Assembly: GCF_009914755.1 (NCBI RefSeq) | Contig: NC_060937.1 | Reading direction: 5' to 3' (one strand) | Length of the DNA stretch: 64,000 bases | From: the human T2T-CHM13v2.0 reference genome, Homo sapiens | Part shown: in pieces, positions 9,091 to 56,499 of the stretch | Numbering within the stretch: the first letter of the stretch is position 1 | Layout: every line of letters begins with the position of its first letter | Program-made: the position numbers and the translations under genes | Notes under the pieces: generated by a model | The model's input: only the letters and a program-made list of their open reading frames with translations | What the model was told of the DNA's origin: nothing | The model's database searches: none

Positions 9091-9329
9091 TGAAAAACCA
9101 AGGCTATATGAATAAAGCATAACTTCGGTTAGTAATAACATATGAATATTGTTTCATTAGCTGTGACAAGCCATAGTAATGAATGATGTTAATTATAGGG
9201 AAAACTTGCATCCAGTTTTCCCTATAATTAACATCATTCATTACCATGGCTTGTCACAGCTAATGAAACAATATTCATATGTTATTACTAACCGAAGTTA
9301 TGCTTTATTCATATAGCCTTGGTTTTTCA
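9091..9329. repeat. Inverted repeat with 116-bp arms, a 7-nt spacer and one mismatch
   Basis: 9091-9206 is the reverse complement of 9214-9329 except A9175/C9245; spacer tgcatcc at 9207-9213. Confidence 0.98.

Positions 9330-15432: not shown

Positions 15433-15472
<40 letters not shown>
15433..15472. repeat. (GT)20 microsatellite
   Basis: Direct reading. Confidence 0.98.
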
Positions 15473-21448: not shown

Positions 21449-21488
<40 letters not shown>

Positions 21489-50490: not shown

Positions 50491-51282
50491 ATTTTACTGA
50501 TTTCTAACAGCAACCACAAAAAAAGAGGAACAACCGATTCTCTATTTTATTTTACTTTATTTCCATTTTCCTGATGAAAAAATGAAGACTTAAAGATGTT
50601 AGGAAACTTGGGTCAGTAGTGAATTATTCAGAAAAGGGCAAGGATTCAAATAAGAGTCTGCTTATGCCAAAGTTAATGTTCTCTTTTCCACTAGATTGTA
50701 TTGCTAGCAATTCAGTTGGACTTGAGGATGACTCAAGTCCTCAACAGAAGAAAGTTATTTCCACTCATTGAGCTGCTTGAAATTTTATCACTGGAGACTT
50801 GTTGTTTGGGTTTCCTCCTATCTTTAAGAGTGCTATCATCTAGTTCATATGTTCCCCAAAGATGTACCTGCACTATTGCTCATCACAATTTTGTTTAAAT
50901 CACAAGTTATATGTTACTGCTTAACAATTAATTCCAAACATAGTGTTTCAAAATTATAATGATTGATTTATTTAAGATTCCTCCATTTGAACCAGACTTA
51001 ACTGGGCTGGGCAGTTCTCCTGATGGTCTCTCCTGAGATTCCTCAGGTGGCTGTAGTCATTGGACAACTTGACTAGGGCTAGATGATTCAAGATAGCCTC
51101 ACTCATACATCTGGCACTTTGCTAAGACCATGACACTCCAGTTCCTCTCCAAATGGTCTCTCCATCAGATTTTGTATATGGTAGCAGCATGTTTCCCAGA
51201 AAACAAGACTCAATGCTTGAGTGCTTATCCAGTGTTAGCTTGGATTACATTTGCTGATATACCATTAGCCAAAACAATTCAT

Positions 51283-51753
51283 TGTGGACAGGATAATGCC
51301 TCCTCCCCAAAGATGTTCACATACAATTCCCCAAAACTCGTGACTATTTTAACTTACATGGTGAAAGGGACTTTGCAGATATGATTAAGTTAAATATCGT
51401 GGAATGGGAAGGTTATCCTGGACAATTTGGGTGGACCTCATAAGGGTCCTTACAAGAGGCAAGCGGCAGCAGTGTCAAAGTGAGAGAAGGAGACCTGATA
51501 ACAAGAGCAGAGGCTGGAGTAATGCAGTTACAAGCCAAGATACATAAGTGGCCTCTAGAAGTTGGAAAACACAGGAATGAATTCCCCCCCTAAAACCTTC
51601 AGAAGGAAGCCTTCTCTGCTGACATATTGATTTCAGTCCTGTTAGAACAGTTTTCTATTTCTGACATTAAGAACTATAAAATAATATATTGGTGTTGTTT
51701 TGAGCTACTCAGTTTGTGGAAATTTGTTATAGCAACAACTGGAAACTAATACA
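51283..51753 (+). mobile_element. MLT1D-like solo LTR, apparently nested in an older antisense MLT1 (about 50890-51860)
   Basis: ccccaaagatg...ttacatgg..aaagggactttgcagatatgattaagtta...ggaaactaataca. Confidence 0.85.
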
Positions 51754-52536
51754 CACATCACATATCCAAGTCCAGAAGCAACATGGAAGAAGATCATCCA
51801 AGAATCTAAAAGTTAGAAGATGTGATTCACTGAGGCTCATTAATGTAGCAATCTATCACACAGAAGATCTAAATTTTCAATAATAGGGGATTTTTAAAAA
51901 TAGAGTGTTTCCTAATGATAGACTACTACACTACTACACATTTTTTAAAAGGTAGTTAAGTCTGGCTCAAATGGAGGAATCTTAAATTTATGTCCATATG
52001 TGCATTGTAATAACAATGATAATAGTAATAATAATGATATGTTGTAATAATAATAGTAAGTAAAAAGATAAGTTGTAGAAGAACGACATCCTAAATTGTT
52101 CACGATGTTAAATTTCAAAAGCAAGCTACAGAACAGCAGCTACAATATGAATTCACATTGTTAGAGGAACATAAATAAACATCTTATTTTCAGAAAGAAA
52201 AACAGATAATAGAAAGATGGGTAGATATAAATAGTATGTGGGTAAATATATGTATAAGCTCTAAGAACTAGAAGCATACCTGACAAAATGTATACTGAAG
52301 TTTATGGGTATAAATGTATAGTGAAGTTTATGGTTTTTGTTTTATTTGTTTCCACATACTCTCAAATATTCCACGATGAGGATTTGTATTTTTGTTACAG
52401 AAGCAACATAATACTATTATTTAAGTATAATACATATTTTTGAAGAAAACAAAAACTAATAATGCTTTTGGGAGGGCTTTATTAATAGGGTGTACTTTTG
52501 TTGGTGTACATTGTGTTATTGCTTTGAAAAAATAAG

Positions 52537-54165
52537 GGCTGTATAAATGTCTTCTTTTGAGAAGTGAGTGTTCATATCCTTTGCCCACTTTTTGATGGGG
52601 TTGTTTTTTTCTTGTAAATTTGTTTACGTTCCTTGTAGATTCTGGATATTAGACCTTTGTCAGATAGGTAGACTGCAAAAATTTTCTCCCATTAGTAGGT
52701 TGCCTGTTCACTCTGATGATAGGTTCTTTTGCTGTGCAGAAGCTCTTTCGTTTAATTAGATCCCATTTGTCAATTTTGGCTTTTGTTGCAATTGCTTGTG
52801 GTGTTTTCATCATGAAGTCTTCGCCCATGCCTGTGTCTTGAATGGTATTGCCTAGGTTTTCTTCTAGGGTTTTTATGGTATTGGGTTTTACATTTAAGTC
52901 TTTAATCCATTTTGAGTTAATTTTTGTATAAGGTATAAAGGATATAAGAGGTCCAGTTTCTATTTTCTGTGTATGGCTAGCTAGGTTTCCCAGCACCATT
53001 TATTAAATAGGGAATCCTTTCCCCATTGCTTGTTTTTTTCAGGTTTTTTGAAGATCAGATGGTTGCAGATGTGTGGTGTTATTTCTGAGGTCTCTGTTCT
53101 GTTCCATTGGTCTATATGTCTGTTTTGGTACCAGTACCATGCTGTTTTGGTTACTATAGCCTTGTAGTATAGTTTGAGGTCAGGTAGCATGATGCCCTCA
53201 GCTTTATTCTTTTTGCTTAGGATTATCTTGTCTATACAGGCTCTTTTTTGGTTCCATATGAAATTTAAAGTAATTTTTTCTAATTCTGTGAAGAAAGTCA
53301 ATAGTAGTTTGATGGGGATAGCATTGAATCTATAAATTACTTTGAGCAGGATGGCCATTTTCCAATATTGATTCTTCCTATCCATGAACATGGAATGTTT
53401 TTCCATTTGTTTGTGTCCTCTCTTATTTCTTTGAGCAGTGGTTTGTAGTTCTCCTTGAAGAGGTCCTTCATGTCCCTTGTAAGCTGTATTCCTAGGTATT
53501 TTATTCTCTTTGTAGCAATTGTGAATGGAAGTTCATTCATGATTTGGCTCTTTGCTTGTCTACTGTTAATGTATAAGAATGCTTGTGATTTTTTCACATT
53601 GATTTCGTATCCTGAGACTTTTCTGAAGTTGCTTATCAGCTTAAGGAGTTTTTGGGCTGAGACGATGGAGTTTTCTAAATATCGAATCATGCCATCTGCA
53701 AACAGACAATTTGACTTCCTCTCTTCCTATTTGAATACTCTTTATTTCTTTCTCTTGCCTGATTGCCCTGGCCAGAACTTCCAATACTGTGTTGAATAGG
53801 AGTGGTGATAGAGGGCATCATTGTTTTGTACTGGTTTTCAAAGGGAATGCTTCCAGTTTTTGCCCATTCAGTGTGATTTTGTCTCTTGGTTTGTCATAAA
53901 TAGCTCTTATTATTTTGAGATATGTTCCATCAATACCTAGCTTATTGAGAGTTTTCAACATGAAGGGATGTTGAATTTTATAGAAGACCTTTTCTGCATA
54001 GGACAAATACCTAATGCATGCAGGGCTTAAAACCTAGATGATGGGTTGATAGGTGCAGCAAACCACCATTGCATATGTATACCTATGTAATAAACCTGCA
54101 CATTCTGCACATGTATACCGGAACTTAAAGTAAAAAAGTAAAATAAAATAAAATAAAATAATAAA
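52537..54165 (+). mobile_element. 5'-inverted L1PA7-like insertion: inverted ORF2 part 52537-53999 (-), short forward 3' UTR and tail 53996-54165 (+)
   Basis: ORF2 peptides on - strand (52649-54006); ggacaaatacctaatgcatgcagggcttaaaacctagatg 3' UTR on + strand; gcat junction microhomology; no clear TSD. Confidence 0.92.
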
Positions 54166-54180
54166 GTTTTTTATTTTATT

Positions 54181-54299
54181 TATTTTAACTTACATGGTGA
54201 AAGGGACTTTGCAGATATGATTAAGTTAAATATCTTGGAATGGGAAGGTTATCCTGGATGATTTGGGTGGACCTTATAAGGGTCCTTACAAGAGGCAAG
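54181..54299 (+). repeat. 119-bp dispersed duplicate of 51345-51463 (MLT1D-like segment)
   Basis: Ungapped alignment at offset 2836 with 4 mismatches (115/119 identical). Confidence 0.97.
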
Positions 54300-56499
54300 A
54301 GAAGAAGAGTTTCTGCCCTTGCAGAAAGTGTAATCTACTGCCCTTGAAGATGATCTATTTTACTCAAGGAAGCAAAATACGCACTTATGAGAAAATTAGA
54401 TCATATAAGATTGCCGTAATGCTTGAGTGACAATCAACTAGGTAGGGAAAATACATAGAGGAGAAAGGGCAACTTATCAAAGCCTGGTCTTGGGGGCAGG
54501 TAGCTTTGAACTAACATTGACAATAAGTGAGGATACATGTGCTCGTGGAACAAAGGACAAAGTTTGCGGGGATAAGCAGAACCAGCAGAGGAAACAGTCC
54601 TAATAGAGACATAAACAAACTCAGAACACAGAGAAGGCACACATTTACATGAGTAAAACAAGAGGTTTGTGTATTGGAGTAAAAGATAACTTAGGGTGAA
54701 ATCATTGAAAGAAGCAACAGAGGAAGAGAGCTTCAAAAACTAAGCTGAAAAAGTCAGAATGAAATTTTAAAAATATATATTTTTCGTGTCTTTGCTTTAT
54801 TTTGTTTTGTGTTTAACCATCTTGACAGCAGAAGAGGTAAACGCTAAGTTGTTGTTTTCTTGTTTTGTGTGTGTTTTTTAATTATTCCTTTGGAAAAAAT
54901 ATTTTTTAAAATTATTTTAATGGGTCCAGATCTCCTACTAATCTGATATAAGTCTGGTCAGGCCACACTGTGTGCAATTTCGGGGCCCTGCCAACATTAG
55001 AAAGATACCTACTTAAAATAAACCAAATTTGATTTAATAGAAAACAAAAAGAAAAATATTTTAGCCCTTCGTAACTCATTGCCCCAAAGATAACATCATG
55101 ACATTGCTTACTTGCCTACTCTCACTTTCAGCTTTTTATAAAGCTTACTCGTGCAATAAAGAGATGCAAACGACCAAACCTACTTTCTCTGCTTGTCTTA
55201 TAATGGGAGCACAATAGGTACAGAACAAATGCTGGTGCAAAAGTTAAGAATGCATTGAACCCAGGGCTCCAAAGGGGAGGGGAAGCACATCTAGGAATTT
55301 CCCATTTGTAAACCAGACTTTGAATCTAAGACACTTGGGAGTTAAGGTGGAAAAAAAAGAGGAATGTGACACTATTCCCTCCAAAAGATTGTTTTTAAGT
55401 GTTAAATCTCCCACCAAGAAGGACTGATACAATTAGGGTGGAAATAAAAGAGGCATCTGTTCTAGTTCATCAGACAGACCACCTACCACACTTTACTTTA
55501 AGCCTCCCAGCCTCTGACATGTCCAACTTTTTCTGTTTCAAAGGAAACATTACTAGGTTCAGCAGCCACAGATGGAGCTCTGACAATTGTGATGCGCCTG
55601 CTGTCACTGTGCGAGTCAGGGTCATCTATCAATGGTGTTTTAGTCCTGATATTGCCTCAGACTAAGAGACTCTACAGGGTAGAGGCTCTAGTGTGTAAGG
55701 CAGGAGGCAGAGGACCCTTGTTCTTGTCGCCTTCTGTCCTTAGCATTTACAACAGGTACCATCGGGCAGACAGAACAAGGGCACTCCTCACCTCATCTTC
55801 ATCCTCTGAGAAGCAAGAGGTGGACTTTGCATGCTCTGATGTGATTGACAGATATTTTTAAAAACTAAACTCATACTTAATTTTTATTTCAATTTGATGT
55901 TTTTGCATGTTTGGTTTTTTTCAAAGTCAGATCAATTAAAGCAAATGTGCTTCTGTGGCAAAGCATGTGAAGTGAGAAAAATGGAAACAGTGATTCCATC
56001 GTATTTCACTAGTCAGATCCATATTTCTCTCAGGGGAATTTGGAATTTGGAGAGGGAATTATTGCCTATAAAGAGATGGTCGTGCTTGGAGCTCTTAGCC
56101 TGACACCTCCCAGTGCTCCATTTCCTCAGAATACATTTTTTCCAGCTGCTTTTCTGTTTAAACTGTGATTTAGCTATTGTGCTTATGCTTGATTATTATA
56201 GTGAAAAGAGATTTATTATTATAACTTATATTTGAATTTTTGAGCAAATTCTGTGGTAGCAGTTTGAATTCTTTAGAAACTAAGATAAGAGGAGGCCCTA
56301 CTGAACAAAGGCAGCACAAGGAAACAGTTTATTGAGACTATTTAGAGAAAATCAGATTTTAAATGTCCAGTATCTTACGCTTTGACATGCATTCAAAACT
56401 TAAAATTATTTTAACCCTGGAAAAACTGATTTCTACCACAGAGTAGCTTCTGTTATTTTAGATGATCTAATCTTTGGGGAGGGTCTTCACTTACTCTAG

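What the first reader, a model, noticed from the sequence alone, without database searches (positions are those of the whole stretch)
54140..54299. Local DNA captured at an L1 3' junction: fold-back of the tail, then a 119-bp copy of a neighbouring ancient LTR segment
Seen: after the (taaaa)n tail comes its inverted image (ttttttattttatttatttt), running through tatttt directly into a 115/119-identical copy of 51345-51463. The donor lies about 1.1-1.2 kb upstream of the L1 insertion point. Two of the four differences (ca vs tg) are opposite decays of one ancestral CpG. Established: MLT1 LTRs are ancient, so independent copies would be far more diverged. Inference: during or soon after L1 integration the 3' end was repaired by serial template switching (snap-back, then invasion of nearby DNA through tatttt microhomology), replacing the TSD. 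This is not a standard 3' transduction, because the donor is local and there is no second poly(A).
Basis: partly seen in the sequence, partly recalled or inferred. Interest (0 to 1): 0.75.

Follow-up and report, generated by a model that had tools for sequence, protein, structure and literature searches.

The report
Local repair copy beside old L1
A 119-base piece of nearby DNA has been copied to the tail end of an old LINE-1 element, most likely as a scar of DNA break repair, a known kind of event with hundreds of described examples in the human genome; whether it arose with the LINE-1 or later is not settled.

Summary
54181-54299 is a 115/119 copy of 51345-51463, and that local stretch is the best donor among the 40 genome matches scored (97%; next 89% over 75 nt). 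A 14-nt T-rich filler joins it to the tail of a 5'-inverted L1. The anatomy (donor under 5 kb away, short filler, microhomology) fits the repair-mediated duplications of Pace et al. 2009, who list 824 in human. The copy looks younger than the L1: 2 non-CpG-type differences in 117 nt, against 3-5.5% per lineage for the L1. The clock is only suggestive, though: 18 of 160 duplications of similar age are this close. Donor distance leans the other way. A decayed TSD may survive before the filler (not significant). Mirror-image tails are not enriched at 2,927 related L1 ends, so no recurrent L1 pathway shows. Verdict: a new member of a known class; later break about 0.5, made during integration about 0.33. 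Primate orthologues would decide.

The parts
51345..51463 (+).
   Evidence: 115/119 to the copy; dispersed relatives 74-89%, 12-24% from the donor
52527..52536 (+). End of the left flank, AAAAAATAAG, after TTTG: candidate left TSD copy at an L1-endonuclease-like site
   Evidence: L1 homology begins at 52537; endonuclease consensus recalled; TSD status not significant
52537..53999 (-). Inverted 5' piece of the L1 (twin-priming structure)
   Evidence: 87-90% to 29 dispersed L1 copies; edges from sister copies
54000..54135 (+). Sense 3' end of the L1 (L1PA7/8-like by recall); about 630-650 nt of L1 missing between the two pieces
   Evidence: 93-96% to 39 copies; gap 611-650 nt in 22 of 27 sisters
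54136..54166 (+). (TAAAA)n tail; its last 10 nt, AATAATAAAG, are a candidate decayed right TSD copy
   Evidence: sequence; alignment and 17 of 121 chance rate
54167..54180 (+). 14-nt T-rich filler, inverted image of the tail
   Evidence: 12/12 match to the reverse-complemented tail; top of 124 tracts
54181..54299 (+). 119-nt copy of the donor; begins with TATTTT shared with the inverted tail, ends with AAG shared with the end of the left flank and of the tail
54300..54325 (+). Start of the right flank, single-copy by BLAST, weakly like the 3' end of an L2-type repeat
   Evidence: only self hit; 14.5 bits against a home-built profile, picked post hoc

Best explanation
This is a 119-base local duplication with a short filler at the end of an old L1 tail, likely a scar of break repair by template switching and likely made after the L1 had inserted. 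Shown: the copy, the local donor, the filler, TATTTT and AAG at the junctions, the 5'-inverted L1. Inferred steps: a break or gap opened at the end of the A-rich tail; one 3' end copied 14-20 nt from the opposite strand of the tail, switched through TATTTT to the LTR segment 2.7 kb away, copied 119 nt and rejoined through AAG. Synthesis could equally have run from the right flank leftwards. The enzyme (polymerase theta end joining or synthesis-dependent strand annealing) cannot be read from the sequence. No function is implied.
For: Class: donor under 5 kb away, 119 nt, microhomology and filler, as in Pace 2009 (824 cases, median 147 nt, filler 1-68 nt, microhomology 2-9 nt). Timing: the L1's own non-CpG divergence is 3.9-4.5%, 5.5% (22/403) and 3.1% (4/129); same-type sisters differ by 9.4% pairwise. 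A copy of equal age should differ by 6-11% and differs by 3.4%; Bayes factor same-time versus later 0.01-0.25 for 3.9-5.5%, 0.6-0.7 for 3.0%. The filler mirrors the A4T period of the tail, which suggests that the tail already had that pattern (inference). No excess of mirrored tails at 2,927 L1 ends of this type: 2 at 10-40 nt versus 2 at 50-80 nt; T10 runs at 10 versus 17 distinct loci. Such copies arise without integration: one lies inside a sister L1 (L064, 33/33, 1,020 nt away) and two more lie in this window.
Against: The clock is weak in practice: 18 of 160 orthology-dated duplications shared with macaque and 3 of 75 older ones are at or under 3.4%, and two inside L1PA7 elements are at 3.8 and 4.8%. 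Distance favours a time when the L1 was not yet between donor and copy: 47 of 235 listed cases lie 870-1,270 nt apart, 10 of 235 lie 2,500-2,900 nt apart. The patch begins where a TSD would end, a special place only in the integration model. Private L1 differences may be inflated by source-gene differences, since only 40 of 17,395 candidates were scored. None of 39 proximal cases inspected by Pace had a poly(A/T) tract of 5 or more; this filler starts with T6.
Confidence: 0.5

Rival explanations
1. Made during L1 integration. After twin priming, second-strand fill-in runs across the tail and the TSD to the nick at the TSD's right end. The new strand would have slipped there, folded back, copied the donor then about 1.1 kb away and re-annealed through AAG. 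The TSD would be kept, not replaced.
For: Donor distance at the mode of known cases (47 versus 10 of 235). Patch starts right after a TSD-like 10-mer and ends in AAG. Integration-coupled templated insertions exist: 22 cases in a set of 3,598 tumour insertions; fold-back duplications at L1 target sites in 4 cases, 0.4%. 11% of duplications of similar age are this little diverged; partial gene conversion could also lower divergence (the first 54 nt are identical).
Against: Clock leans later. Published integration-coupled templates typically lie within 15 bp of the site, and the fold-backs are 5' of the target site. The TSD remnant is not significant (17 of 121). No genome-wide excess of mirrored tails.
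Confidence: 0.33
2. The patch came first, at an A-rich break 1.07 kb from its donor, with filler copied repeatedly from the left flank; the L1 later inserted at its left edge and made an ordinary TSD.
For: Modal distance; endonuclease-like site and candidate TSD pair; the reverse complement of the left flank end contains TTATTTT (sequence).
Against: The copy would be older than the L1 yet is less diverged; 3 of 75 old cases are this close. The filler matches the tail best.
Confidence: 0.08
3. A short retrocopy of a minus-strand RNA across the LTR; the T-rich filler is its poly(A) tail read on the other strand.
For: On the - strand the copy is followed by a 20-nt A-rich run. AGAAGAAGAGTTT after the copy loosely resembles the sequence before it (10 of 13 with a gap, by eye).
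Against: A retrocopy landing within 3 kb of its source is very unlikely (inference); proximal cases in Pace lacked retrotransposition marks (0 of 39); no exact TSD; no AATAAA or ATTAAA upstream on the - strand of the donor (sequence); no annotated transcript covers the donor (hub table).
Confidence: 0.04

Closest known systems
Repair-mediated duplications (Pace, Sen, Batzer, Feschotte 2009, PMC2671141); 'doublets' of Thomas et al. 2004 as described there
   Same: Single local donor under 5 kb away, 50-600 nt copy, filler and microhomology at the junctions, primate age.
   Different: Lies at the end of an L1 tail rather than inside a repeat, so their pipeline would likely miss it; none of the 33 proximal chr13 rows has this length and distance. 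The filler is an inverted image of the tail.
Templated insertions of polymerase theta-mediated end joining (PMC5068794; GDBr, PMC11724358)
   Same: Serial primer-template switches, a reverse-complement (snap-back) piece, 3-6 nt microhomology; 6,205 such variants counted over the human pangenome set.
   Different: 119 nt from 1-3 kb away is long and far compared with the flank-templated inserts in the passages read (about 85% primed within 10 bp); the enzyme was not tested.
Templated insertions and fold-back duplications at new L1 insertions (10.1101/2024.08.27.596794; PMC10191854; 10.1101/2024.12.14.628481)
   Same: Genomic segment under 250 nt duplicated next to an L1, also with a 5' inversion.
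   Different: Those are somatic or experimental, typically templated within 15 bp; the fold-backs of PMC10191854 are on the 5' side. Here the patch is behind the tail and the donor is over 1 kb away; coupling to integration is unproven.
L1 3' transduction and class 1 templated sequence insertion polymorphisms (PMC5110952, abstract start only)
   Same: Non-L1 DNA behind an L1 tail.
   Different: Donor is local, no second tail on the L1 strand, no clean TSD around the copy.

Membership tests
Repair-mediated duplication (Pace 2009) | Copy of 50 nt or more with one clear donor in the genome | tested here: met
   119 nt; donor 97%, next 89% over 75 nt among 40 scored
Repair-mediated duplication (Pace 2009) | Donor more than 50 nt and less than 5 kb away | tested here: met
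   2,718 nt now, 1,073 nt without the L1
Repair-mediated duplication (Pace 2009) | Microhomology, filler or deletion at the junctions | tested here: met
   14-nt filler, TATTTT and AAG; deletion not testable
Repair-mediated duplication (Pace 2009) | No retrotransposition marks (poly(A/T) tract of 5 or more, TSD) | tested here: inconclusive
   filler starts with T6 but mirrors the adjacent tail; no exact TSD around the copy
Repair-mediated duplication (Pace 2009) | Empty orthologous site in an outgroup | not testable with these tools
   no other primate genome is held (no relatives)
Integration-coupled templated insertion | Same age as the L1 | tested here: inconclusive
   clock leans later, distance leans the other way
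Integration-coupled templated insertion | Template close to the insertion site (typically within 15 bp) | tested here: not met
   119-nt donor is over 1 kb away; only the filler is adjacent
Twin-primed (5'-inverted) L1 | Antisense 5' piece joined to a sense 3' piece with tail | tested here: met
Twin-primed (5'-inverted) L1 | Target site duplication | tested here: inconclusive
   AAAAAATAAG versus AATAATAAAG; 17 of 121 tracts match as well
L1 3' transduction | Donor lies downstream of a distant source L1; second poly(A) and TSD follow | tested here: not met
   donor is local and upstream; no tail after 54299
Polymerase theta end joining | Dependence on POLQ | not testable with these tools
   sequence signature only

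The most novel reading that the evidence does not exclude
A fixed germline record of L1 second-strand synthesis: while filling across the tail and TSD of a twin-primed L1, the new strand folded back, copied 119 nt from DNA more than 1 kb away and was sealed behind an intact TSD. That would place long-range template switching at the 3' junction of L1 integration, where I found no described case in my searches.
Probability: 0.3. Interest if true: 0.45.

Novelty: new member of a known kind. Interest (0 to 1): 0.2.

Why it matters
As a repair scar it is one more neutral example among hundreds and matters little: it lies in intergenic DNA with no annotated gene or element over it (hub table) and no Rfam match. 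If orthologues showed it was gained with the L1, it would be a dated example of template switching during completion of L1 integration, and a reason to search L1 3' junctions for local patches that could be misread as transductions.

Tried and rejected
(1) Idea that both L1 flanks are one old L2 split by the insertion, which would fix the empty site. Direct searches with the flanks found nothing. A profile from 12 motif-selected copies found no hit. An iterated profile of 49 copies (seeded by 6 of the 12, chosen by eye) gave 1.4 bits across the junction. The left flank scored no better than 16% of 1,500 random positions, while true copies scored 31-37 bits. Not supported. (2) First L1 divergence figure, 6.1%: dropped as inflated, the 29 sisters being a mix of subfamilies. 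The 2.2% figure (bases shared with no sister) is biased low by recurrent changes, but under it the clock is not significant (P 0.10-0.38). (3) First likelihood model treated 51399 as a CpG site; relatives show the copy's state there in 13 of 18, so it was redone. (4) 3' transduction and a distant donor: rejected. (5) Rfam: no match in 50500-55500. (6) A wider survey of flanks of related L1 ends for local patches was not done; only 1.5-kb flanks were seen, so the rate of such patches at L1 tails remains open. (7) Thomas et al. 2004 was not held; PMC7719264 gave no ages; PMC12016303 had no passage on templated DNA.

Full report
Observation. The window shows, left to right: an old LTR-type repeat holding the donor (51345-51463); single-copy DNA ending in TTTG AAAAAATAAG at 52536; an antisense L1 piece (52537-53999); a sense L1 3' end (54000-54135); a (TAAAA)n tail ending AATAATAAAG (to 54166); a 14-nt T-rich filler; the 119-nt copy (54181-54299); then single-copy DNA. 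Copy and donor match 115/119 without gaps and similarity stops sharply on both sides. In the genome search the local donor is the best non-self match, 97% over the full length; the other 38 listed matches are 74-89% and mostly partial (40 of 819 candidates scored).

The L1. It has the structure of twin priming as described in PMC12016303. In 22 of 27 sisters that hold both pieces, 611-650 nt lie between them. A TSD cannot be shown or excluded: the left flank end aligns to the tail end with small changes, but 17 of 121 other A-rich tracts give as good a match within 15 offsets.

The filler. Filler plus TATTTT aligns 18/19 to the inverted tail. Among 124 A-rich tracts in 343 kb of held DNA the two best scores are this site from either strand (31, 24); the next is 17. 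None of 21 same-type L1 tails shows such an image (by eye). Two same-strand T-rich stretches within 5 kb score 29 and 28, so the tail is the best but not the only possible source. Genome-wide, 2,927 sites carry this L1's last 15 bases. The 12-mer mirror follows at 10-40 nt in 2 (one is this site) and at 50-80 nt in 2; T10 follows in 10 and 17 distinct loci (overlapping rows merged by me). The mirror here is rare, and folded-back tails are not a visible recurring product of integration.

The four differences. At 51398-9, 13 of 18 related LTR copies have the copy's state; at 51438-9, 7 of 11 have the donor's; at 51423-4, 12 of 16 read TT and none CG. A CpG at the time of copying is possible but is an inference; a route with both changes in the donor fits too.

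Timing. The L1's own non-CpG divergence was 3.9-4.5% (bases shared with at most 1-3 of 29 sisters; 2.2% if shared with none), 5.5% against four same-type sisters (22/403; sisters 9.4% apart) and 3.1% in the 3' piece (4/129, biased low by selection). A copy made with the L1 should then differ from its donor by about 6-11%; it differs by 3.4%. The Bayes factor for same time versus any later time is 0.01-0.25 at 3.9-5.5% and 0.6-0.7 at 3.0%. Orthology-dated cases temper this. In the three of 15 parts of Pace's Table S1 that I read, 18 of 160 cases shared with macaque (mean 6.3%) and 3 of 75 shared with all primates (mean 9.6%) are at or under 3.4%; Pace puts L1PA7/8/8A at 30-42 Mya. Distance points the other way: 47 of 235 cases lie 870-1,270 nt from the donor, 10 of 235 lie 2,500-2,900 nt. 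Clock and distance roughly cancel. What tips me towards a later break is the mirrored A4T period (inference), the lack of any excess at L1 ends, published coupled templates lying within 15 bp, and local copies that formed without integration: L064 carries a 33/33 copy inside a same-type L1, and this window has an inverted 33/34 copy and a 116-nt fold-back.

Mechanism. Shown: the arrangement and junction sequences. Inferred: a free 3' end at the tail end copied the opposite strand of the tail, switched to the donor through TATTTT (TATTTT-ACTT versus TATTTTAACTT), copied 119 nt and rejoined through AAG; the reverse direction gives the same product. In standard priming the strand that starts reverse transcription stays joined to the right flank (own knowledge), so a patch behind the tail needs either a later break or a slip of the second strand at the last nick. 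The second route is the serious rival (0.33) and would keep the TSD. Patch-first (0.08) and retrocopy (0.04) are weaker. That it is a template-switch repair copy of local DNA, at whatever time, has about 0.9.

Known or new. Pace et al. 2009 describe 824 human duplications with donors under 5 kb, filler and microhomology. This locus matches none of the 33 proximal chr13 rows by length and distance; I did not convert coordinates. Templated insertions and fold-backs at new L1 insertions are also described. Searches gave no paper on this locus or on a distant-template patch behind an L1 tail; the library lacks most subscription journals, and preprint supplements were not seen.

Papers seen. PMC2671141: parts 1-3 of 8, passages, Table S1 chr13 rows and parts 3, 9, 10. 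PMC11724358, PMC10191854, PMC12016303, PMC5068794, PMC7719264, 10.1101/2024.08.27.596794, 10.1101/2024.12.14.628481: passages only. PMC5110952: search listing with abstract start. Thomas et al. 2004: not seen, known through Pace.

Verdict. Real, correctly located, a new member of a known class. Interest 0.2; 0.45 if orthologues tie it to L1 integration (probability about 0.3).

Noticed in passing
window 9091-9329: Near-perfect palindrome: two 116-nt arms with one mismatched pair and a 7-nt loop (9207-9213). It looks like a young fold-back duplication inside an old repeat (old L1 3' end by recall); such hairpins can be fragile.
   Followed up: partly
window 51954-51987: Inverted 33/34 copy of 50970-51003, 951 nt away; a second local templated insertion within 600 nt of the L1's left edge.
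   Followed up: partly
L064 1238-1270 (donor L064 186-218): 33/33 same-strand copy placed inside the 3' part of a same-type L1, replacing a few L1 bases, donor 1,020 nt away.
   Followed up: partly
window 15434-15472 and 21449-21487: 39-nt pair at 90% identity, 6 kb apart.
   Followed up: no
window 53999-54000: The inversion junction of the L1 skips about 630-650 nt of L1, larger than the within-20-nt spacing seen in 46% of inverted L1s in PMC12016303.
   Followed up: partly
window 54313-54362: Two 25-nt units at 72% just right of the copy, each starting CTGCCCTTG.
   Followed up: no
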